DNA of 64,000 nt from an uncultured Chloroflexia bacterium (GCA_963789865.1 CAWBMD010000001.1:129095-193094); one strand, 5' to 3'. Positions 20,624 through 32,250 are shown, counted from the first letter of the stretch. The notes: generated from the letters alone by a model not told the origin. Made by a program: numbers and translations.

Positions 20624-21283
20624 TCAGCGGTCCCACCCGCCGCGCCCGACCAGCGGCACGAACACGACCGGCCCCTCGGAGCGGTCCACCCACTCGTTCC
20701 CGTGCCGCTCGACGACCAGCAGCTGCTGCTGCCGCCGGGAACCCACCGGGATCACAAGGCGCCGCCCATCTCCCAGCTGCTCCCGCAGCGCTGCTGGGAC
20801 CGCGGGGGCCGCGGCCGCGACGACGATGCCGTCCCACGGGGCCCCGTCCGGCAGGCCCAGGCTCCCGTCGCCCGCGCGGACGTCCACGTGGTCCGCGTAC
20901 CCCAGCTCCGCGAGTCGGTGGCGCGCGTCGTCCGCGAGACCCGGGCTGCGCTCGATCGTCGTCACCCGACAGCCGATCTCTGCGAGCACGGCCGCGGCGT
21001 AACCGGAACCCGTGCCCACCTCCAGGACGCGATCCCCGCTCCCGACGTGGAGCAGCTCGGTCATGCGCGCGACGATCCACGGCTGGCTGATCGTCTGGCC
21101 GCTGCCGATGGGCAGCGGACCGTCGCGGTACGCGAGGTCACGTTCGTCCGCGGGCACGAACCGCTCCCGCGGGACTGTGTCCATGGCGGCGATGACCCGC
21201 TCATCGTGGATGCCACGGGCCAGCAGCTGGTCCGCCACCATCCTCGCCCGGGCACCGCTCGCGCGTGCCCGGACCTCGTCCAT
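20624..21283 (-). CDS. pcm: Protein-L-isoaspartate O-methyltransferase
   Basis: GQTISQP, VLEVGTGSGYAAA, GDGSLG, FVPL. Confidence 0.93.
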   Translation of the reverse strand: MDEVRARASGARARMVADQLLARGIHDERVIAAMDTVPRERFVPADERDLAYRDGPLPIGSGQTISQPWIVARMTELLHVGSGDRVLEVGTGSGYAAAVLAEIGCRVTTIERSPGLADDARHRLAELGYADHVDVRAGDGSLGLPDGAPWDGIVVAAAAPAVPAALREQLGDGRRLVIPVGSRRQQQLLVVERHGNEWVDRSEGPVVFVPLVGRGGWDR

Positions 21284-21293
21284 GACTGCCGGT

Positions 21294-21888
21294 CTAGCTC
21301 GCCGACGGGCTCGGCGAGGCGGCGCCACTGGGCGATGCCGCGGGGCTGGCGGACGGTGCGGCCGTCGGTGCGGCTGTCGCCGACGGGGCTCGCCGTCGCG
21401 GAGGGGCTGGCCGTCGGCGAAGGCTTCGGTGTCGGCGCTGGGGTGGCCGTCGGTGCAGGCGTGGCCGTGGGTGCGGGTGTCGGCGTGGCCGTGACGTTGG
21501 TCACGAAGCCGCCCTGCCCGAACAGCAGCGCAAAGGCGAAGATCGCCACGAACACGCCGATCGTCGCGATGACGAACGCCGCGGACGCGCGGTCTTCGAC
21601 CTTGACCGCCTTGTCGGACATCGATGGCTCGGCGGGCACGGTGCCCTTGGCGCGCCGATCGCGAGCGGGTGCACCCTTCGACGCTGCGGCAGCGGCCGAC
21701 GCTGGCACGGGCTCGTCGTCGTCGGCCTCGTCGTCGGCCTCGTCGGCCTCGTCGTCGTCGGGCGCGTCTGCCTCGTCGGCCGGTTCGCCGGCGGCATCGG
21801 TCTCGAGCGCTGCGTCGTCCGCAGCTTCGGTGTCGTCCGTCGCGCCATCGGGGCCCAGGGCCTCCGGGTCGCGCTCCTTGTCGGTCAT
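21294..21888 (-). CDS. Hypothetical single-TM protein with acidic N-terminus and Pro/Thr/Ser-rich C-terminal tail
   Basis: DEAD-type acidic repeats, one TM, PTATPA repeats; C-terminus frameshifted. Confidence 0.65.
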
Positions 21889-21988
21889 GCCGTGATCGGT
21901 CTCCTCTCCGCGGGCGACGCCTGCAGGCACCGCCTCACGCGGCCGTCAGTGTACCCAGCCCCGCCCGCCTCCGGCCCGTCCGCCTGCG

Positions 21989-24158
21989 TCATGCCTCCCG
22001 CAGCGCCTTGACGCCCAGCCCGGCAAGCCCGGCCGCCATCGACAGCAGGCCCCCCGCAGCGATCACCGGACCCGGGCCCGAAGATGCTCACCAGCAGCCC
22101 GCCGACCGCCATCGCCACAGACATCCCGCCGAAGACCAGCGCGAACCGGAGGCTCACCACGCGCCCCATCAGCTCGGGCGGGGTGCGCTCCTGGAACAGC
22201 GTCTGGCTGGGGATGACGAACGCCATGTTGGCGACGCCGACCCCGAACAGCAGCCCCAGGACGAGCGGGATCGAGTTCGCGAGCCCGACCAGGAACACGA
22301 ACAGGCCGAAGACGGTGTAGGCGGCGATGACCATCGGCCCCTTGCGGACACGCGAGGCCACGAGGCCGAGCGCGAAGCCGCCGATCAGGCTGCCGAGCCC
22401 GATCGCCGTCTCCATGAACGCATAGGTGGCGCGGTACTCGTCGCCCGGGGAGTTGGTGATCTCCCGGGCCAGGACGATGCTCGAGACCGTGACGATGCCC
22501 ACGGCGAACTGGCCGGCCGTACCCTGCAGGGTGTTCGCCAGCAGGACGGTCTCGTGGCGGAGGAAGGCCCAGCCGGCCTTGAGGTCGGCGCGGATCGAGG
22601 CCGGGGCCCCGTCGCCGGTCCCGTCGCCGGCGCCCGCACCATCGGCGCCCGCGCCGCCGTCCACGCTCGCCGTCCAGGTTTCCCAGCTGCGCGCCCGCCG
22701 GACGAGCGGCGGCACGACGATCGTGGACAGCAGCGCCGCAGAGGCGAGGTAGGTGGCGGCGTCGAACCAGAACGCGATCGGGAGCGAGCTCGCCAGGAAC
22801 ACCACGAACAGGCCCGCGATCGGGTAGAACAGCACATCCGCGAGCGTCTCGCCCACCCACATGGCCGAGTTGGCGGAGAGCAGGTCGTTCTCCGGCACCA
22901 GCCGCGGCAGGACGGTCACCCGGGCCGGGCGGAAGAAGATCGAGACCGTGGTGATGAGGAAGACCAGCGGATACGCCAGCCAGACGTTGATCAGGATGGC
23001 GACCGGGATCAGCAGCACCAGCGCAGCCCGCAGGATGTCCGAGACCACCATCACCTGCTTCTGGTCCCAGCGGTCCACGTAGGCGCCGGCGACCGGCGAG
23101 AACAGCAGGTTGGGGATCGTCCCGACGAGGAAGGTCAGGGCGACTGCGATGGGGGAGTCGGTGATCTCGTAGACGAACGCGCCGAGCGCGATCTGGTTCA
23201 CGCGGTCGCCGAACAGGCTGATGACCTGGCCCACCCAGAGCGCGGAGAACGACCCGTTCAGGGCCAGGCGGACGTACGGGTGGCGACGAACCCTCTGCCG
23301 GAGCGAGCGACGGCGGGCCCGCCGATGGGGGATCGCGATCCCGCCAGGCACCAGGACCGCGGCGCCCCCGCCCTCCATGGCCATCGACGTCTGGGACGGC
23401 GACGACATGCCCATGCTGCCGGCACCCATCATCAGCGGCCGCTCGAGCGCGGCGGCTCCCTCGAGGCCCGGCGTGAGACCGGTTCCGGCGCGGACGTCCA
23501 GGCCGCCGGCGTCGGGCTCGCCGTCCGGGCCCTCGTGACGTCGCGGGAGGCGGGCGGTGCCCGACAGTCCCAGGTAGCGGCCGGTCTTCGCCTCGTCGAT
23601 GGCCGCCTGCGTCTCGGCCGGCGTCCGCATCAGGGTGGCGAACAGGAAGAACGCGAGGCCGGCGGTCAGGAACACGTCCCCGATCGAGGCGACGTTCCGG
23701 ACCAGCGGCAGCGGGATCGGGATCATGTCCCCGAGCGGGACCAGCCGGAACAGGAAGTCGGGGCCCGTTCCCGCGACCTTCACATGCAGCACCGAGGTCA
23801 GCTCGGGCGGCAGGCCGGAGGCCGTCAGCGCGGGCACCCAGACCGGCATGTGCCCGGCATTCACCAGGATCACCAGCGCGTTCAGGGCAATCCCGATGAA
23901 CGCCAGCGCCAGGCCCGGGTAGGAGCGGTTCTCCCACAGCGTGAACAGCAACAGCATGTACGCGGTGGCCAGGAGCGGCAGGCGCAGCGTTTCCACGATG
24001 TCCACCCCGTACCCGAGCAGCGTTTCGGTCCCGAAGCGGAGGATCACGGCCAGGAACAGGAGCGGCAGGAAGCGCAGCCTGATGTTGGTCAGGTGCTCCA
24101 GCTTTCCGCCCAGGAGCAGGCCGAGCACGAGCCCGAGCGCGATACCGCCGATCAGCAT
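21989..24158 (-). CDS. DUF5317-MFS transporter fusion (frameshift near the C-terminus)
   Basis: N-terminal ~175 aa with GIALNALVILVNAGHMPV and LGD..SIGD (DUF5317 signature); linker; MFS with LWVGQVISLFGD, AGAYVDRWD, QERTPPELMGRV. Confidence 0.85.
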
Positions 24159-24251
24159 CCCGAGATTGTGGGGCCGAGGGATGAGGCCGTGCGGGGCGTG
24201 TCGTGCGGACGTGGCAGGCCCTGCGCGTGCCGCCGGTGCTGCGCGTGCCCC

Positions 24252-24305
24252 GGGTCCGGTGCGCGGCGCGGGTCCAGTGCGCGGCGCGGGTCCAGTGCGC
24301 GGCGC
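24252..24305. repeat. Tandem repeat, 3 x 18 bp (GGGTCCRGTGCGCGGCGC)
   Basis: Units at 24252, 24270 and 24288, between the HD-GYP and DUF5317-MFS genes. Confidence 0.85.
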
Positions 24306-24366
24306 TCTTCACCACGTCCGATACGCCGGACGGCTCCGCGCCCCGGGAGGGGCACGAGGTCCATGC

Positions 24367-25731
24367 TCAGTTGGCGTCGGTCGTTGAGGGGCCGGCGGTC
24401 CGGTTGACGTGCTGCGAGATCAGCGGGATCGGCCGAGGCTGCAGGGTCCGGCCCGGGTCGGGCACGTCCTGGACCCAGTCGGTCTTCACGAAGGCGTCCA
24501 CCACCTTCGGGTCGAACTGGACCCCCGCGTACTTCCGCAGCTCGCCCAGGGCCACCTCGGGCGTGAGCGGGGTCATGCGGTAAGGACGGGCTGCCGTCAT
24601 CGCCTCGAACGCATCGGCAACGTGGAGGATCCGAGCGAGGAGCGGGATCTCGTCCCCGATGAGCCGGTCCGGGTAGCCCGAGCCGTTGAACCACTCATGG
24701 TGATGCCGGATGATCGGCACTTCGCGCGCAAGCCGCCTGACCGGGAAGATGATCTCGGCGCCCAGCACGGGGTGCGAGTTCATGATCTGCCGCTCTTCCC
24801 GGGTGAGGCGACTCGGCTTCTTCAGGACGTCGTCCGGCACGCCGATCTTGCCCACGTCGTGCAGCAGGCCGCCCCACTCCAGGGCCTCGAGGTCGCCCTC
24901 GCCGAGACGCATGACCCGCCCGATGTCGACGGAGATGTCCTTGACTCGCCTCGAGTGCATCGCGGTGGTCGGATCCCGCTTGTCCACGGCCCCAGCCAGC
25001 GCGGTGATGGTCTGCGTGAACATCTCCCGCATCTCGATGAAGTTGTGATAAGCGAGCCGCGTGGTGTAGAGGGGCAGGGCGAACAGCAGGCTGGACCACC
25101 AGACCACGGTGTACATCTGCGCCATCAGCCAGCCGAGAGGCGCCAAGCCGAGCAGGTTTGTGGTAAAGCCCCGAGGATCGCCGAGAGCAGCTGCGCGGAA
25201 CGGCTGTCCCGTTCTCAGTGCGAGACCGACAGCGGTCAGGTAGCATTGATGAGGAAGAAGAGCGCCGCGCCGGCATGGCTGCCGAGAAGTGCCGAGCGGT
25301 GTCATTCGCGCCGCGGATACGCCGGTGCGCGCATCAGAGCCCTGCGGCGATGCAGGGATGACAATTGCGGCGTGATTGGCGAGCGTGCCATACCAGGGGA
25401 TCCGGCCGCGCAGTTCGCGCAGTTCAGTCGTGCCAATCAGGGCGACCCACGCCCCCGCCGTCGGGCCGCCGAGGAACGTGGCGGCAATGAGCGGTGCGAG
25501 CGAGACACGCCACCATCGTTCCGCGGGGCATCCGCACGGGCAGCGCCGACGCGAGGAGGGTGACATACGCACCAGAAGGCGAGGCCGAGCTTGAGGCGGG
25601 TCCAATCCAAACGGCGACCCCGGCGAGGCTCATCGCGATCCCAGATCGGGAATCAAACGAGTCGTGGCAATCAGCGCAACCGCACCCACTACCACGACTC
25701 CAATGATGTAGAGCTTCAGCTTCGTCGGCAT
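24367..25731 (-). CDS. Membrane-anchored HD-GYP phosphodiesterase (multi-TM, MASE-type N-terminal sensor; sensor part frameshifted)
   Basis: ATG at 25731 after GAGG (MPTKLKLYIIGVVVVGA); LLHDVGK, HPVLG, HHHEWFNGSGYP, ADAFEAMTAARPYR. Confidence 0.9.
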
Positions 25732-25814
25732 TCGTCCTCAGCTCCGCGGTCGGTGGGACTCCAGCCCTCTTCGCCTCGGTGAACAGGACTTGCGTACTGA
25801 GGCTAGTGCTGCTC

Positions 25815-25967
25815 CTAGAAGCCCCTGAGTGACGCCCCGCCGGCCAGCGCCAAGGCGGCGACTGCGCCAAGGGCCGCCAGGATCGCTGAGGCGATCCTGA
25901 TCGCATCGGTCGATTCTCCCTGCGACCTTGACCTACCAGCCCTTGAGGATGCCATTTCCGGTGCCAC
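25815..25967 (-). CDS. 50-aa peptide precursor MAPEMASSRAGRSRSQGESTDAIRIASAILAALGAVAALALAGGASLRGF (absent from the ORF track)
   Basis: Perfect SD AAGGAGGT 7 nt before GTG; open frame to TAG; charged N-region, ~18-aa hydrophobic core, GGA plus short tail; first gene behind the riboswitch. Confidence 0.8.
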   Translation of the reverse strand: MAPEMASSRAGRSRSQGESTDAIRIASAILAALGAVAALALAGGASLRGF

Positions 25968-26003
25968 GCTCGCTACCTCCTTGCGGCCTCCGTGTCCGCA
26001 AGG

Positions 26004-26040
26004 AACACGAAAACCGACCTGACTCGAAAGTCGGTCGGTT
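26004..26040 (-). terminator. Intrinsic terminator (riboswitch expression platform)
   Basis: AACCGACC-GACT-TTCG-AGTC-A-GGTCGGTT followed by TTCGTGTT; its 5' arm is the 3' end of the aptamer. Confidence 0.8.
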
Positions 26041-26116
26041 GCACTATTCGCTCCGCCTCCACCCTAAGTGCCCAATTCAGGTGGTGGCATCAGCGCGTCC
26101 GAGCGTTTCCTTGACT
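26029..26116 (-). promoter_or_regulatory. c-di-GMP-II (class II) riboswitch-like aptamer
   Basis: GGAAAC..TGATG-CCACCACCT-GAATTGGGCACTT-AGGGTGG..TAGTGCAACCGACC: matches the class II core as I recall it (AAUUGGGCACUU / AGUGCAACCGACC), with a CCACC/GGTGG pseudoknot; lies upstream of an HD-GYP gene. Confidence 0.82.
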
Positions 26117-26147
26117 GCACAGTACGTAAGTACTAGTGCAGGGCCGG

Positions 26148-26177
26148 ACTATAGGGAGCCCTGTCCACACCGGTCAA
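26148..26177 (-). promoter_or_regulatory. sigma70-type promoter for the riboswitch-peptide-HD-GYP operon
   Basis: TTGACC-N18-TATAGT, followed by a 5' hairpin (TGCACTAGTAC/GTACTGTGCA) and the aptamer. Confidence 0.7.
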
Positions 26178-26463
26178 TACGCAACCCTACCTATGCCCAC
26201 TAGGCATGATGGCCCCTTCGGGCTCAGCTGGGAGCCATTCAGGTCAGGAGCGTCATCACCACGGCCCGGTGTCGGGCCCCGTCGGTCTCGTGCCGGCGAT
26301 CCCACCACGAGAGGAGTAAGACTTCGTCGCTCGCGCCACCGGGATCGACGGCCGCAACTCCCTTTGGCCGCGGCCAGCGCTGTGACAGTCCTTGGTGTGC
26401 GACGGGCGCTCAACTGCAGCAATGGCTCTCGGTTTGGGCCTTCGAAGGGATAGGACCCAGCTC

Positions 26464-29400
26464 TTACAGATCCTCGATCCTTGGGGGTTCCAGACCCAAT
26501 TGATCGCGAAGCACGGACGCGTAGTGCGCATACTGCTCAGCCGCTGCGGCCGGGGCGCCGAGCAGTCGATACAGACGAACGACCTGAGCCTCGATTTGAT
26601 CAGCCTCAGGGTCGATCAGGAGGGCTTGCTGACCGACCCACAGCCTCCAGCGCAGGTCGGACCCCTGTCGATCGCCCACAATCGCGCTTTCGACCTCGCC
26701 AAGGTACCGAGCGTGAAGGTTGTCGCGATAACTGGATGCCCAATCCTCGTACGGAAAGTCGGACGCAAAGCGCCCGCGGTAGTTCGCGACCAACTCCTCC
26801 ATCAAGGCAGGCGTAGCGGGGCGCGCGTTGAGGAGTATCTGGCAGCGCCAACTGCGGCATGAGATGAGCTCCGAGTCGAGCCAGATGACCTCGCTGTCGA
26901 AGTGCACGTATTCAGGCGACACTCCAGCTCGATACTCCGAATCAATGACCCGTCTGAGGAAGTAGATGGTTTGATGGATCGAGTTGCTGCCCTGTTCCGG
27001 ATCTAGTTCTGGCCATAGGGCATCCATCACCCGGTCCGGCGTGGCGGCTCCATTCGGCTGGCTCGCGAGAAATGCCAGGAGGGCGAGCACTTTGCGCCGT
27101 ATGCCGCGCCCGTCAACGAGTCGGTCGCCGAGGATGATCGAAATGGGCCCGAGGTCCTCGACCATGGCTCGCGGTGCAAGCCGCCGCGCCAGTTCTCCAC
27201 CCCAGTTGCGAGTCGATCGCCGACCAAGGCGCCCGTATTCACGCAAAGTCTGAATGTCCGCCGACTCCCCGATGAGCTCGAGCAGCGCCGCGGCGTGGTC
27301 GGATCGCCCGGGTTGGATGGCGCCCCGGAGATCATTCCTGAGCGGGCCGCGCCAGCGATGCGGTGATCCTTTGGCAGCACGAATTACGACATTAAGTGCC
27401 TGCTCAGACATCTCGTTGAGGCTTCCGGCGATCTCCGATGCGAATACGCCTAGAAAGGCATCAACCTGAGGCGTCCAAGACTCGATTATCCTCGAGGCTT
27501 GGACGGGATCAGTTCCAAGCCCGCGCAGCAGGGATGCGAGGCGTCCCTCAACGGGCGACCTTTGCTCCGCGGCAACTTCCTCGGCTTTCGAAACCTCGGC
27601 CACGAACTTGTGCACGGCGCCCGTCGCGAGGTATGAGCGGGCCTTTGTGAGGTGCCATCGGAAGGTTGCCCCGACCTCCAGCGACTGAGTCGGGGCGTCC
27701 GGCAGCCGATCCAAGATCTCGCCGCGGAGCCGCGGGTCTTTCTCGAGCCACAGGTCGAGGACTCTCCAGTGCAGCTCCCAGTCCGCTGGCAGGGTCTCGC
27801 GACGCACGCTCGAGAGGATCCGGTTTGGCAAATCCTGTGGGCCAAACCATGCCGCGAGGCTGGCTGCCTCGAGCACTGCCTCAGCTTGGCCTTCGGGGTG
27901 CGTGGTGCCCAGGGCAAAATCGAGGATCACCTGAGCGCGGGTCCAACGGCCGAGATGCGCCTCCGCACGCGCCTGCACGAGTCGAACTGAGACAAGTTCG
28001 TAGCCTTGCGACGAGCGGGCGAGCAAGTGTTCTGCATCGCCCGCGAGCCGAAGCGCCTCCGTGTCTCGGTCAAGGAGCACTAGTACCTGCGCCAAGTTCA
28101 GACTCGTGATCGCCGCGTGGTGCCAGTGTGCCTGCTTGCGCTGGGCTGTCAGCAGTCGCTCAAGCTGGTGGGCCAGGGCCGGGAGACTGCCGGTGCCGGA
28201 TCCGCCGAGAATCGCAACGTAGGCGCTTGCCAGTTCCCGATCTCGTCCACTAGTACTCTCCGCCAGCGCCCTGTGAGCGTAGACGAGGGCTTCCTCATAC
28301 TGGCGAGCACCGAGCGAAATTGTCGCAGCGTTCTGTAGTGCGATGGATATGCAGTCGGGGCGCAGTATCTCGGCCGACCGGACGGCCGCGGCGGCTGCTT
28401 CTCGAGCCTCGATGGCCGCCCCTACCTGCAGCAGCAGCCGTGACCGGAGAACCTCCCCGACCACCGCGACCTCGTCGGTGCCAGCGAGCAGGTCGGCAGC
28501 CGCCCGGTACTGACCACTGCCCAGGACCTGACTGAGAGCGCGCTGAATGACTTCGCCAGCTAGGTTGGGCTCGCAAGCCTCCCGGTAATGGTGAGCGGAG
28601 AGTCGCCACGACACGAGCGCGAGCGAGGCCCCAATGGCTAGATGCTTGTCACGGATCCATGCGGTCCCAACCTCTCGCTCGGAGGCGGGCAAGTAGGTAC
28701 TCTTGGACGAGCGGCACAAAACGTCGCCCGCCCTCGATGTCGGATCCGACGAGAAGGCCCAAATCGTCGGCGGCGCGAATGAGCCGGACGCAATCGTCTC
28801 TGCTTCCCGCGCCGAGCATCGACGCAGTCTCGGGCTCAATACACTCGAGGATCGAAGCCTTGATCAAGAAGTCCGACAGGGGTAGAGGAACGTGATCGAG
28901 GACTTCCTCGGTTAGGTAGTCCCTGAGTTCGCCAGCCGCGCCCGATAGGCTCCTGACGAGTCCTCGAGTCTCGTTTGCACCCCGGCCTTCCAGGCTCGTT
29001 TGGACCAGCGAGAGGAGGGCGGGCCAGCCCTGCGTGCGGTCGATCAGGTCCGTGACGACGTCCGGGTCGAGTGGCTGGTGGTAGGCGTCGCGGAACAGGC
29101 GCTCGGCCTCGGGGACGGTGAAGCACAGAGCGTCACCGTCGATCCTGGAGACCGCGCCGCGCGACCGCATCCGGCCCAGCGGGAGGGACGGCGTCATGCG
29201 GGATGCGAGGACCATCGAGAACCCGGGTCCGGTCCGCTCGAGAAGCGCACGCATGATTGGCTCGGTCTCGGGGCTGCCATCGACGCTGTGGTAGTCGTCG
29301 AACAGCAGGCTCAGCCCGTCCGGGAGAGATGAGGCGAGCTCGCTCATCTCTCGCGCGACGCTCATGGTCAGCTCGTCACGCGTCGGTCCACCCGGTCCGA

Positions 29401-29992
29401 GGGCGAGCAGCAGGTCATAGGTCTCGGGCGCAAACCCCGGATCGATCTCGCGGCCCGTGGCCACCAGGTGCCGGATGAAGGCAAGCCAGTCACGGTCATC
29501 GGGCTCCAGCCGGTACCACGCCGTCGCGCGACGAGTGTGGCGGGCCCAGTCGGCGAGCATCGTGGTCTTCCCGAAGCCAGCCTCTGCAATGACGAGTGCG
29601 AGCCGCCCGCCGACCGCTCCGTCCAGCCAGCCGTTGAGGCGCTCACGCGACAGGACGTCGTGCCGCAGGAGCGGCCGGTGGATCTTGACCGGCTGGATCG
29701 GCAGCGGGTTCATGCCGATCCGCCCGAGCGGACCCGCGAGCAGGATCGAACTGGCCGTCCCCGGCCCGACCGCGACCAGCGCATGCCCCTCGTGCCCAGT
29801 GGTCGACGGTCTCGGCCGGGATCTCCTGCCGCTGACGGTGCCGTCTGACGATGCGAACGATACAGAGTCTTCCGCGACGTCAAGGGCGTCCTGCGCCGAC
29901 GCGCCGGCCTGGCTCATGGCGGCCGAGGGCGTTCGGGAGGTCGCGGCCCGGTGGCGATCCTGCTTGCCGGTGATCGATGGCATGCCCGGCAT
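26464..29992 (-). CDS. Large MalT-like STAND regulator: P-loop NTPase + TPR region + winged helix + BTAD (frameshifted ~28650-28840; start uncertain)
   Basis: KIHRPLLR..RERL, AEAGFGKT, LLFDDYH, TQGWPA, DYLTEEVL; C-terminal LLAFL..LWPE..YFLRR and YRGRF..YEDW..ALLIDP (BTAD). Confidence 0.85.
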
Positions 29993-30887: not shown

Positions 30888-32250
30888 TCAGCCGACGCCC
30901 TCGTAGCGCTCCCCCGCGTAGCTCACGAAGCGCGTCTGCGCCTTCTTGAACCACAGGTCGATCTCGCCGGTGGGGCCGTTGCGGTGCTTGGACAGCTTCA
31001 GCTTGACCACCTCGCCGTCGGTCTGCTGGTCGTCCGACCCGCGCTCCTTCTCGCGCCACAGGAACATCACGAGGTCCGCGTCCTGCTCGATGGAGCCCGA
31101 CTCCCGGAGGTCCGACAGGCGAGGCTCCTTGGACTCGCGCATCTCCGGCTGCCGCGACAGCTGGCTGAGGGCGATGACCGGGACCTTCAGCTCGCGGGCG
31201 AGGGCCTTGAGCCCGCGCGAGATCTCCGAGACCTCCTGGACGCGGTTGGCGTCACGCGTGGTGGTGGAGGACTGCATGAGCTGCAGGTAGTCCACGATGA
31301 CGAGGTCCAGGCCGACCTCGGCCTGGAGGCGCCGGGCCTTGGTTCGCAGCTCCATCGTGGTGATGTTGGGCGTGTCGTCGATGTAGATCGGCGCCTCGGA
31401 CAGCGCGTTCATCGCCGGGGCGATCCGGGCGAAGTCCAGCTCCTCCAGGAAGCCGGTCCGCAGCCGCTGCGAGTCGATGTTCGAGACCGACGACAGCAGG
31501 CGGAGCACGAGCTGCTCCTTGCTCATCTCGAGGCTGAAGATGCCGACGGACTTGCGTCCGTGACGGCCGCGTGCTCCGCGATGTTGAGCGCGAAGCTGGT
31601 CTTGCCGACCGAGGGCCGGGCCGCGAGGATCACGAGGTCGCTCTTCTGGAGCCCGGTGGTCAGCGTGTCGAGGTCCCCGAAACCCGTCCGGATGCCGCTG
31701 ATCTCGCCGCGGTGGGCGTGGAGGTAGTCCAGCCGGTCGTAGGCGTCGTGGAGGAGGCTGCGCAGCGACCGAGAACCCGGCCGAGACGCGCCGCTCGCTG
31801 ACGGCGTAGAGCTCCGACTCCGCCCGGTCGATCGCCTCCTGACCTCCGCCGGGTCCTCGTAGCCGATGCCGGCGATCTTGCCCGCCGCGCCGATGAGGTT
31901 CCGCAGGACGGACTTCCGCTCCACGATGCGGGCGTACTGGGCGGCGTGCACGGCGGTCGGCGTGGAGTTGGAGAGCGTGGCCGAGGTAGGCGCGGCCGCC
32001 GATGCTCTCGAGGTCCCCGGATCCGCTCCAGCGCCTCCGACACGGTCACGATGTCGATGGGCTCCCGTCGCTCCGACAGGTCCAGCATCACGGCGTAGAT
32101 GCGACCGTGGGCCTGGCGGTAGAAGTCGTCCGGCTTGAGGAAGTCCGCGATCTCGATCATCGCGTCACGGTCGATCAGGACCGCACCGAGCACGGACTGC
32201 TCGGCCTCGATGGATTGCGGCGGAAGGCGGTCGATCATGCGGTGCGGCAT
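30888..32250 (-). CDS. dnaB: Replicative DNA helicase (frameshifted)
   Basis: [56 protein letters not shown]. Confidence 0.96.

What the first reader, a model, noticed from the sequence alone, without database searches (positions are those of the whole stretch)
21989..29992. Candidate undescribed peptide-signalling system wired to c-di-GMP
Seen, all on the minus strand and in order: STAND/TPR/BTAD regulator; sigma70 promoter; c-di-GMP-II-like aptamer plus terminator; 50-aa hydrophobic peptide gene; multi-TM HD-GYP; DUF5317-MFS fusion. Known: HD-GYP domains hydrolyse cyclic dinucleotides, and peptide quorum-sensing loci such as agr cluster precursor, processing enzyme and membrane receptor. 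Inference: the precursor is cleaved by DUF5317, moved by the MFS and sensed by the HD-GYP membrane domain (or the TPR regulator), which changes c-di-GMP and feeds back on the riboswitch. That would be quorum-sensing logic with a phosphodiesterase as receptor instead of a histidine kinase.
Basis: partly seen in the sequence, partly recalled or inferred. Interest (0 to 1): 0.93.

Follow-up and report, generated by a model that had tools for sequence, protein, structure and literature searches.

The report
Riboswitch operon with conserved small peptide
A cyclic-di-GMP riboswitch in an uncultured Chloroflexota bacterium switches on an operon holding a tiny conserved membrane peptide, a membrane phosphodiesterase and an uncharacterised membrane protein fused to an exporter, and the peptide and that protein travel together across the phylum.

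Summary
All six elements are present, with corrections. The window comes from an indel-rich MAG of Ca. Limnocylindria (Chloroflexota). In this assembly the regulator is one gene split by a frameshift and the HD-GYP N-terminus is frameshifted.

The 50-aa ORF is an artefact. It fuses two conserved small ORFs: a 10-codon leader (uORF1) and a 29-aa signal-peptide-like gene (sORF2).

Main results:
- Of 88 distinct homologous leaders, 79 keep uORF1 and 77 keep sORF2.
- sORF2 shows clear protein-level selection.
- The regulator, c-di-GMP-II riboswitch with terminator, small ORFs, MASE9-HD-GYP and DUF5317-MFS stay linked across two families.
- In 40 distant Chloroflexota DUF5317 loci, 24 have an HD-GYP gene nearby, against 0 of 20 controls.
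- In the same 40 loci, 23 have an upstream small ORF of the same build, against 2 of 120 control windows.
- Other neighbours of DUF5317 are MASE9 histidine kinases and STAND/TPR/BTAD regulators.

Most likely this is an ON riboswitch driving a c-di-GMP-degrading feedback operon. Its core is an undescribed peptide-plus-DUF5317 membrane pair.

Nothing shows cleavage, export or cell-to-cell signalling. DUF5317 resembles no known peptidase or solved fold. The module is new and worth experiments.

The parts
26464..29992 (-). STAND (MalT-like NTPase) / TPR / winged-helix + BTAD regulator. It is one gene, broken by a frame change near 28675 in this assembly.
   Evidence: Pfam AAA_16, Trans_reg_C and BTAD. 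Intact 1140-1195-aa orthologues in relatives. NCBIfam MalT-like N-terminus, E 1.2e-50, in the orthologue of L071. Frame change mapped by tblastn. Present upstream on the same strand in 75 of 76 loci.
26148..26194 (-). Conserved promoter: an ~18-nt conserved block, then -35 TTGACC (26177-26172), an 18-nt spacer and -10 TATAGT (26153-26148).
   Evidence: Consensus scan. The block and both hexamers are conserved in all 15 same-genus sequences aligned. The 22-nt block occurs once in the held genome.
26115..26144 (-). Conserved inverted repeat or 5' stem-loop between the promoter and the aptamer.
   Evidence: Conserved in the 15-sequence alignment. Pairs in the minimum-energy fold.
26026..26109 (-). 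c-di-GMP-II riboswitch aptamer.
   Evidence: RF01786, 61.6 bits against a gathering score of 53.5. Found at the same place in relatives.
26005..26036 (-). Intrinsic terminator. Its 5' arm overlaps the 3' strand of aptamer stem P1.
   Evidence: stem 26036-26012, then the T run. Overlap read from the alignment. Forms in the ligand-free fold. The arrangement is kept in 84 of 88 leaders.
25933..25967 (-). uORF1: a 10-codon leader ORF in relatives (start, P at 3, K at 8, W or F at 10, stop). Here it is 35 nt and frame-shifted.
   Evidence: Found in 79 of 88 leaders, 61 of them exactly 10 codons.
25815..25906 (-). sORF2: a small signal-peptide-like membrane peptide gene, 29 aa in relatives. Here it is 92 nt, so its ATG is out of frame with its 3' part.
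   Evidence: Codon-position entropy 0.81/0.48/1.45. Synonymous share 0.50 against 0.10 and 0.055 in the shifted frames.
25729..25814 (-). Conserved spacer between sORF2 and the HD-GYP gene. It holds a conserved TAGAGT-type block, either a small hairpin loop or an internal -10 box.
   Evidence: Structure not supported by covariation.
24367..25728 (-). MASE9-HD-GYP phosphodiesterase gene. The HD and GYP motifs are intact. The N-terminal MASE9 part is frame-broken in this assembly.
   Evidence: Pfam HD_5, 133 bits. Frames. Intact 455-498-aa orthologues. MASE9 in 36 of 45 orthologous N-termini. hhalign 95.6% to a MASE9 kinase.
21989..24158 (-). DUF5317 (aa 1-190, 23589-24158) fused to a DHA3-type MFS exporter. 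There is a frame change near 22050-22078.
   Evidence: Pfam DUF5317 88.7 bits and MFS_1 75.4 bits. TIGR00900 E 1.5e-61 in the orthologue. tblastn frames. AlphaFold model of the DUF5317 part, pLDDT 93.6.

Best explanation
This is a riboswitch-gated feedback operon for c-di-GMP, built around an undescribed membrane pair: a small peptide and DUF5317.

Transcription and gating:
- Transcription starts at a conserved sigma-70-type promoter. The adjacent STAND/TPR/BTAD activator probably serves it (inferred).
- The c-di-GMP-II aptamer and the terminator share bases. Bound c-di-GMP should hold stem P1 closed, prevent the terminator and let RNA polymerase read on. That makes it an ON switch (inferred from the sequence overlap).

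Products:
- A 10-codon leader (uORF1).
- A 29-aa peptide (sORF2) with a basic N-terminus, one hydrophobic helix, a conserved AGGAS junction and a five-residue tail ending in (K/R)G(F/W).
- A MASE9-HD-GYP phosphodiesterase.
- DUF5317 fused to a DHA3-type MFS exporter.

Proposed action:
- The phosphodiesterase lowers c-di-GMP and so shuts its own operon. This is negative feedback, inferred from the known HD-GYP activity.
- The peptide is a real protein whose evolutionary partner is DUF5317 (shown by comparative genomics).
- I think it most likely acts in the membrane of the producing cell, as a partner, ligand or substrate of DUF5317. Through that it would tune the membrane-embedded MASE9 sensor of the phosphodiesterase, or of a histidine kinase in other lineages (inferred).
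For: Riboswitch and gating:
- Aptamer above Rfam's gathering score.
- Aptamer and terminator overlap, kept in 84 of 88 leaders.
- The terminator forms in the ligand-free fold.

Operon conservation:
- Kept in 14 same-genus loci.
- Aptamer found in 12 of 17 other-genus loci of the family and in 12 of 16 loci mostly of a second family.
- Aptamer-like sequence found in 58 of 80 further loci. The 22 misses all lack enough upstream sequence.

sORF2 is a real gene:
- Found in 77 of 88 leaders.
- Third-position entropy 1.45 against 0.81 and 0.48 at positions 1 and 2. Synonymous share 0.50 against 0.10 and 0.055 in the shifted frames.
- It has its own ribosome-binding site.

Peptide-DUF5317 pairing beyond the class:
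- 23 of 40 loci against 2 of 120 control windows.
- 21 of 29 chosen loci against 2 of 400 control windows.
- The pairing holds in loci without any HD-GYP.

Links between the modules:
- DUF5317 and HD-GYP: 24 of 40 loci against 0 of 20 controls.
- Alternative fusions occur: DUF5317-MFS here, HD-GYP-MFS next to a free DUF5317 elsewhere.
- MASE9 kinases lie next to DUF5317.

Other points:
- The HD and GYP motifs are intact.
- The DUF5317 model is confident and has two invariant Asp and three invariant Asn.
- By the positive-inside rule these residues lie on the outer face, where the peptide's conserved junction should also lie (inference).
Against: - No experiment or expression data.
- No binding test.
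- The ON logic is read from sequence only.
- The window's own copy has broken frames, so if the indels are real this particular locus is decaying.
- The riboswitch is missing or undetected in one genus that keeps the peptide, and at Rfam's gathering score in 14 distant loci. c-di-GMP gating is therefore a lineage feature, not part of the core.
- K/R plus W/F at a helix end is also what any membrane anchor looks like, so the tail need not be a signal.
- The strict small-ORF rule was written after seeing examples.
Confidence: 0.5

Rival explanations
1. True cell-to-cell peptide signalling. The 29-aa product is a precursor. DUF5317 cuts it at the conserved G-A junction. The MFS exports the short tail. 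The tail is sensed from outside by MASE9 (HD-GYP or kinase output) or, after re-entry, by the TPR regulator.
For: - The peptide has the build of a signal peptide with a very short cargo.
- The junction is conserved while tails differ between lineages.
- One distant locus has two tandem copies behind a riboswitch.
- An exporter is fused either to DUF5317 or to the HD-GYP.
- Sensor domains with two kinds of output lie next to DUF5317.
- TPR-bearing regulators are linked in 75 of 76 loci, and in three distant loci without HD-GYP.
- In several lineages Pro follows the junction. By recalled knowledge this blocks signal peptidase I and would call for a dedicated enzyme.
- DUF5317 has two invariant Asp in LxD and SxGD settings.
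Against: - DUF5317 matches no peptidase: hhalign 1.3% to LspA and 0.7% to an A24 prepilin peptidase. No PDB sequence hit. Best Foldseek E-value 4.5.
- The tail is almost invariant across species of the genus.
- No importer or kinase in the window's locus.
- Production depends on internal c-di-GMP.
- Nothing shows secretion.
Confidence: 0.2
2. The small ORFs are only cis-acting leader peptides. Their translation, stalling or termination sets how much of the HD-GYP message is translated or transcribed, and the products have no role of their own.
For: - uORF1 has a fixed length (61 of 79 are 10 codons), a variable middle without codon periodicity (entropy 1.00/0.88/0.90) and invariant ends. That is typical of regulatory leaders.
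- Both ORFs end in (K/R)-x-(W/F)-stop.
- In the genus a stem can pair the region after the sORF2 stop with the HD-GYP ribosome-binding site, with 87% of cells paired.
Against: - sORF2 is under amino-acid-level selection along its whole length.
- Small ORFs of the same build stand before DUF5317 in distant loci with other downstream genes and no riboswitch.
- The stem has no covariation support: 45 of 500 shuffles reach it, and RNAalifold finds no consensus.
- The stem is absent in other genera.
Confidence: 0.12
3. The genes are neighbours by inherited gene order only. The riboswitch controls the HD-GYP, and the DUF5317-MFS, regulator and small ORF have unrelated jobs.
For: Within the genus the whole region from LexA/DnaB to PCMT is syntenic, so linkage there says little.
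Against: - In the second family the upstream DnaB/LexA synteny is lost, but regulator, riboswitch, small ORFs, HD-GYP and DUF5317-MFS stay together.
- The pairings recur in distant families in other orders and with other fusions, against clean controls.
Confidence: 0.05

Closest known systems
c-di-GMP-II riboswitches (Rfam RF01786) in front of c-di-GMP-related and surface-protein genes
   Same: The aptamer is above the family's gathering score and is followed by a terminator that competes with P1. It lies upstream of a c-di-GMP-degrading enzyme. Other copies in the same genus lie before secreted or membrane protein genes.
   Different: Here two conserved translated small ORFs lie between the expression platform and the enzyme gene. 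None of the 13 other riboswitch loci looked at has them. That class II examples can act as ON switches is recalled, not read here: my search for it found no paper.
MASE9-HD-GYP proteins (Galperin and Chou, bioRxiv 10.1101/2021.11.05.467447; passages read), e.g. T. maritima TM1467 and S. venezuelae HdgA
   Same: Same domain architecture. That paper proposes that MASE9 binds its ligand within the membrane.
   Different: The paper's main text does not mention DUF5317, MFS or riboswitches (0 occurrences each). Its supplements could not be opened. The link of MASE9 proteins to DUF5317 and to a small peptide gene is not in it.
Short hydrophobic peptide (SHP)/Rgg and Phr/Rap-type pheromone systems of Bacillota (PMC7564271 and others; search listing and abstract starts only)
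   Same: A very small hydrophobic precursor with a basic N-terminus is encoded next to a repeat-domain transcription regulator. A membrane enzyme and an exporter take part in maturation.
   Different: - Other phylum.
- The regulator is a ~1160-aa STAND ATPase with BTAD, not an RRNPP protein.
- The exporter is an MFS, not PptAB.
- There is no Eep-like metalloprotease.
- The neighbouring sensor is a phosphodiesterase.
- Secretion is unproven.
Small membrane proteins that tune membrane sensors, such as MgrB with PhoQ (recalled, not read here)
   Same: A single-helix protein of a few dozen residues is co-expressed with a membrane sensor and forms a feedback loop.
   Different: Here the conserved partner by gene neighbourhood is DUF5317, not the sensor. 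The output is c-di-GMP hydrolysis.
agr quorum sensing
   Same: The precursor, a membrane protein of unknown chemistry, and a membrane receptor are clustered.
   Different: - No AgrB-like or AgrC-like protein.
- No Cys in the peptide for a thiolactone.
- No response regulator in the locus.

Membership tests
c-di-GMP-II riboswitch (RF01786) | Covariance-model score at or above the curated gathering score | tested here: met
   61.6 bits against 53.5, full-length match 1-84.
c-di-GMP-II riboswitch (RF01786) | Binds c-di-GMP and changes expression | not testable with these tools
   Only the aptamer-terminator overlap could be read.
HD-GYP phosphodiesterase (Pfam HD_5) | HD_5 profile above cut-off, with the HD and GYP motifs present | tested here: met
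   133.4 bits against 27.2. Both motifs are seen in the window's translation and in 11 orthologues.
MASE9 sensor domain (PF20972) | Profile match of the N-terminal membrane part | tested here: met
   36 of 45 orthologous N-termini match at E up to 1. The first reaches 30.7 bits against a cut-off of 24.3. hhalign 95.6% to a MASE9 kinase. The window's own copy is frame-broken and was not scanned.
DUF5317 (PF17248) | Profile above cut-off | tested here: met
   88.7 bits against 25. 92.1 bits in the six-frame search.
DHA3-type MFS exporters (TIGR00900) | NCBIfam subfamily cut-off | tested here: not met
   208.8 bits against a cut-off of 319.6 in the orthologue of L071. Pfam MFS_1 and MFS_3 are above their cut-offs. 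It is an MFS of that kind, not a curated member.
STAND / MalT-like NTPase with BTAD output | NTPase, TPR and BTAD profiles above their cut-offs | tested here: inconclusive
   BTAD is met (28.1 against 22.1 in the window, 41.3 in L071). AAA_16 (25.5 against 32.6), Trans_reg_C (22 against 26.2) and MalT (172.5 against 537) are below their cut-offs. TPR profiles hit only the distant relatives.
Signal peptidase II (Peptidase_A8) as a model for DUF5317 | Detectable profile or fold similarity | tested here: not met
   hhalign probability 1.3%. No Foldseek match, best E 4.5. No PDB sequence match.
GxGD-type aspartyl peptidases (Peptidase_A24) as a model for DUF5317 | Detectable profile similarity | tested here: not met
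   hhalign probability 0.7%. Only a 20-column local match at the first Asp motif.
agr-type quorum sensing | AgrB-type peptidase, Cys-containing precursor, histidine-kinase receptor | tested here: not met
   No such Pfam families in the locus. No Cys among the most frequent residues listed at any of the 29 positions for 56 distinct sORF2 sequences.
RRNPP / SHP-type peptide signalling | Secreted and processed peptide that binds a repeat-domain regulator | not testable with these tools
   Only the gene-level likeness was seen.

The most novel reading that the evidence does not exclude
A phylum-wide, undescribed peptide system.
- A signal-peptide-like precursor of 24-48 aa is cut at its conserved G-A junction by DUF5317, which would be a new kind of outer-face membrane aspartyl peptidase.
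- The product is exported by a DHA3-type MFS.
- It is read by the intramembrane MASE9 domain, whose output is either c-di-GMP hydrolysis or a histidine kinase.
- In Limnocylindria a c-di-GMP-II riboswitch closes the circuit, so second-messenger level and peptide production control each other.
Probability: 0.17. Interest if true: 0.9.

Novelty: new variant of a known kind. Interest (0 to 1): 0.72.

Why it matters
- DUF5317 has no function, and no paper in the searched library mentions it (0 hits).
- MASE9 has no known ligand.
- Public pipelines name the small ORFs only "hypothetical protein": 7 of 10 exact sequences are on record. The fusion protein is named only "MFS transporter".
- The comparative data give all of these a testable partner: a small peptide gene that travels with DUF5317, beside sensors that set c-di-GMP or kinase output.
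- If the peptide proves to be a ligand or a processed signal, this would be the first input known for a MASE9 sensor. It would also be a link between peptide signals and c-di-GMP in a large, uncultured soil and freshwater lineage.
- If it is only a membrane subunit, it is still a clean new small-protein family with a riboswitch-driven feedback loop.

Tried and rejected
1. DUF5317 as a relative of signal peptidase II or of GxGD prepilin peptidases.
- Motif likeness led me there.
- The profile comparisons gave 1.3% and 0.7%.
- Foldseek against the PDB gave nothing below E 4.5.
- An HMM search of PDB sequences gave nothing.
- Rejected as homology. Kept only as a motif-level lead.

2. A stem that hides the HD-GYP ribosome-binding site, for translational coupling to sORF2.
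- 87% of cells pair in the main helix.
- 45 of 500 shuffles reach the observed pairing, and RNAalifold finds no consensus.
- It is absent in other genera.
- Left as unproven.

3. The conserved TAGAGT-type block before the HD-GYP gene, as an internal promoter or as a hairpin loop. This could not be decided without RNA data.

4. Riboswitch control as a general property of the module. Rejected:
- None in 20 distant loci with short flanks.
- None at the gathering score in 14 distant loci.
- One sub-threshold case, L230, at 52.7 bits.

5. uORF1 or sORF2 as a usual part of c-di-GMP-II platforms in this genus. Rejected: none in the 13 other riboswitch loci.

6. A regulon for the promoter block. It has one site only in the held genome, which is half complete.

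7. Binding of the peptide to DUF5317 or MASE9 could not be tested.

- Earlier findings.
- Protein atlas.
- The search of protein representatives.

10. The search for related loci with alignment A1 found no stretch conserved enough. I then used the single protein.

11. The literature searches gave nothing on DUF5317 or on this arrangement. The supplements of the MASE9 preprint could not be opened and may list neighbours.

12. The tally (117 of 401 genomes) includes the unpublished genome G242. No locus of it was fetched, and no other claim rests on it.

Full report
**What is in the window**

- Pfam finds AAA_16 in the ORF 28649-29992. It finds Trans_reg_C and BTAD in 26464-28839, HD_5/HD in 24367-25605, and DUF5317 followed by MFS_1 in 21885-24158.
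- Rfam finds one family in the whole window at its gathering score. It is the c-di-GMP-II aptamer at 26026-26109 with 61.6 bits against 53.5.
- A promoter-like TTGACC-18-TATAGT lies at 26177-26148.
- A hairpin with a T run lies at 26036-26012. The promoter scan found 1 site against 0.5 expected. The terminator scan was at chance level overall (3 against 2.8), so the terminator rests on position and conservation, not on the scan.

**The assembly is rich in indels**
- The genome is a 2.48-Mb, 9-contig bin scored 51% complete.
- Record titles of the nearest relatives name uncultured Chloroflexota of Candidatus Limnocylindria/Limnocylindrales.
- tblastn with intact relatives shows frame changes at four places: in the essential DnaB gene, in the regulator near 28675, in the first ~480 nt of the HD-GYP gene, and near the end of the MFS gene.
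- I therefore read the broken frames as assembly errors, and I judged the locus by its relatives.

**The 50-aa ORF is a fusion of two small ORFs**

Downstream of the aptamer, relatives have two small ORFs.
- The first is a 33-nt ORF of 10 codons. It mostly starts with GTG, has Pro at position 3, Lys at 8 and Trp or Phe at 10, and then a stop.
- After 2-33 nt in most genomes comes a 90-nt ORF of 29 codons with its own GGAGG-type ribosome-binding site.
- In the window these stretches are 35 and 92 nt long, and that joins them into one 50-codon frame.

Among 88 distinct leaders collected from 97 loci, the first ORF is found in 79 and the second in 77. Most misses are in sequences with evident indels.

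The second ORF is a real gene.
- In 56 distinct 29-codon sequences the entropy at codon positions 1, 2 and 3 is 0.81, 0.48 and 1.45.
- Half of all codon differences are synonymous, against 10% and 5.5% in the two shifted frames.
- The product has a basic N-terminus, about 18 hydrophobic residues, a nearly invariant AGGAS junction and a tail ending in (K/R)G(F/W).

The first ORF behaves differently.
- It has no codon periodicity (1.00/0.88/0.90) and a free middle.
- Its length and ends are fixed, as in regulatory leader peptides.

**The operon is conserved**
- In the genus, 14 loci have the aptamer 1.8-1.9 kb upstream of DUF5317. The order is regulator, aptamer, small ORFs, HD-GYP (455-498 aa), DUF5317-MFS.
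- Rfam finds the aptamer in 12 of the 17 other-genus loci of the family that I scanned (3 of 20 were left out for size). It also finds it in 12 of 16 loci, mostly of a second family of the class.
- In 80 further loci an HMM of the aptamer hits 58. The 22 misses all have less than about 1.85 kb upstream of the match.
- The regulator gene lies upstream on the same strand in 75 of 76 loci.
- In the second family the DnaB/LexA neighbours are gone, but regulator, aptamer, small ORFs, HD-GYP and DUF5317-MFS stay together.
- The promoter hexamers and an ~18-nt block just upstream are conserved in all 15 genus sequences aligned. The block occurs once in the held genome.

**Riboswitch logic**
- The 3' strand of aptamer stem P1 (to 26026) and the 5' arm of the terminator (from 26036) share about 11 bases.
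- Without ligand the minimum-energy fold forms the terminator.
- The same arrangement is seen in 84 of 88 leaders.
- Ligand binding should therefore favour read-through. This is an inference.
- With an HD-GYP enzyme downstream, whose HD and GYP motifs are intact, the result is negative feedback on c-di-GMP.
- The 13 other c-di-GMP-II sites of this genus that I looked at sit directly before the ribosome-binding sites of secreted or membrane protein genes. They lack the small ORFs.

**What the proteins are**
- The membrane part of the HD-GYP is a MASE9 domain. 36 of 45 orthologous N-termini match the Pfam model. A profile of them aligns to the N-terminus of a MASE9 histidine kinase with 95.6% probability.
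- MASE9-HD-GYP is a described architecture with no known ligand. Its describers propose binding within the membrane (passages read).
- The MFS is nearest to DHA3 exporters but below NCBIfam's curated cut-off.
- The regulator's N-terminus resembles MalT (E 1.2e-50, below the equivalog cut-off). Its C-terminus has a winged helix and BTAD.
- DUF5317 folds with high confidence (pLDDT 93.6) into five helices and a small four-stranded sheet between helices 4 and 5.
- Nine columns of the DUF5317 alignment are invariant in 59 sequences. They include two Asp, in LxD and SxGD settings, and three Asn.
- DUF5317 matches no PDB sequence and no PDB fold (best Foldseek E 4.5).
- It matches neither signal peptidase II (1.3%) nor an A24 peptidase (0.7%) in profile comparison.

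**The wider pattern**
- DUF5317 occurs in 117 of 401 sampled genomes of the phylum. It is fused to an MFS only in the two Limnocylindria families.
- I fetched 40 free-standing DUF5317 loci with 5-kb flanks and 20 control regions from the same genomes.
- An HD-GYP-type gene lies within 5 kb in 24 of 40 loci and in 0 of 20 controls. It is nearly always adjacent and on the same strand.
- Some of these HD-GYP proteins have MASE9. Others have PAS and GAF domains. In one family the HD-GYP itself is fused to an MFS_3 transporter, next to a free DUF5317.
- Where no HD-GYP is present, the neighbours take three forms:
  - MASE9-GAF histidine kinases.
  - ~1070-aa NTPase-TPR-BTAD regulators directly upstream (three loci).
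  - In one family, an M20 peptidase and FtsH.
- A small ORF with a basic start, one hydrophobic helix, a G-A-type junction and a short tail, often with a Trp, lies upstream of the unit in 24 of 29 chosen loci.
- By a stricter rule it lies within 3 kb upstream of DUF5317 in 23 of all 40 loci, against 2 of 120 control windows. The other comparison gave 21 of 29 against 2 of 400. The rule was written after I had seen examples, so the size of the contrast matters, not the exact numbers.
- One distant locus (L230) has a c-di-GMP-II-like aptamer (52.7 bits, just under the cut-off), then a terminator, two tandem copies of such a small ORF, a MASE9-like HD-GYP and DUF5317.
- No c-di-GMP riboswitch was found at the gathering score in 14 other distant loci.
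- The constant pair is therefore the small peptide gene plus DUF5317. The sensor, exporter, regulator and riboswitch are frequent additions.

**Reading**
- The best-supported account is a c-di-GMP-induced, self-limiting operon. Its membrane part centres on the peptide and DUF5317.
- By the positive-inside rule and the model, the invariant polar residues of DUF5317 lie on the outer face. The peptide's conserved junction should lie there too. This fits a partner, a ligand or a substrate.
- For a processed, exported signal speak the lineage-specific tails, the tandem copies, the exporter and the two kinds of sensor output.
- Against it speak the lack of any peptidase likeness and the near-invariant tail within the genus. 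A Lys/Arg plus Trp/Phe at a helix end is also ordinary for membrane anchors.
- No tool here could test cleavage, export, binding or expression.

**Novelty**
- Riboswitch control of a c-di-GMP phosphodiesterase is a known kind of circuit, and MASE9-HD-GYP is a known architecture.
- I found nothing in print on DUF5317 (0 papers). The MASE9 preprint does not mention DUF5317, MFS or riboswitches (supplements not seen).
- Public records call the small ORFs hypothetical proteins and the fusion an MFS transporter.
- The peptide-DUF5317 pairing and its wiring to MASE9 sensors and to a riboswitch are therefore new observations. They are firm at the level of comparative genomics and open at the level of mechanism.

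Noticed in passing
window 30888-32250 (-): The replicative helicase DnaB is read in at least two frames in this assembly (aa 1-72 in one, 73-449 in another, with low identity inside). This points to assembly indels rather than gene decay.
   Followed up: partly
G000:C1:123008-123091 (about 6 kb before the window) and other contigs; loci L044-L059: The genus carries up to 9 c-di-GMP-II-like sites per genome. The 13 I looked at sit directly before the ribosome-binding site of genes for secreted or membrane proteins, which suggests a sizeable riboswitch regulon.
   Followed up: partly
L132:141-221 (-): A c-di-GMP-I-GGC riboswitch (61.1 bits) lies next to a second, divergent DUF5317 gene in a genome of the sister family.
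   Followed up: no
L116 and L120 (genus g5): These loci keep the small peptide ORF upstream of HD-GYP and DUF5317-MFS. Rfam finds no riboswitch there, and a related locus (L114) gives only a weak c-di-GMP-II-GAG match.
   Followed up: no
L258, L259, L261, L263, L264, L266: In one Chloroflexota family DUF5317 sits between an M20 peptidase gene and ftsH, with no small ORF and no HD-GYP nearby. This may be a separate subfamily with another role.
   Followed up: no
L244:5603-8161 (-), and five similar loci by size: HD-GYP is fused to an MFS_3 transporter (853 aa) next to a free DUF5317. This mirrors the window's DUF5317-MFS fusion.
   Followed up: partly
window 25000-29000: G+C falls to 0.61-0.66 over the regulator and leader, against 0.70-0.75 on both sides.
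   Followed up: no
L252:8593-8729 (-): A c-di-AMP riboswitch (97.7 bits) lies 3 kb from a regulator, small ORF and DUF5317 unit, on the other strand.
   Followed up: no
window 21061-21930 (-): A low-complexity acidic and Pro/Thr/Ala-rich ORF with no Pfam match follows the MFS gene. It has weakly similar counterparts in relatives, followed by the PCMT methyltransferase gene.
   Followed up: no
window 25933-25967 and 25815-25830: Both small ORFs end in the same three-residue pattern before the stop (basic, small, aromatic). In some genera the two ends match exactly. The cause is unexplained: shared recognition, gene conversion or a termination effect.
   Followed up: partly
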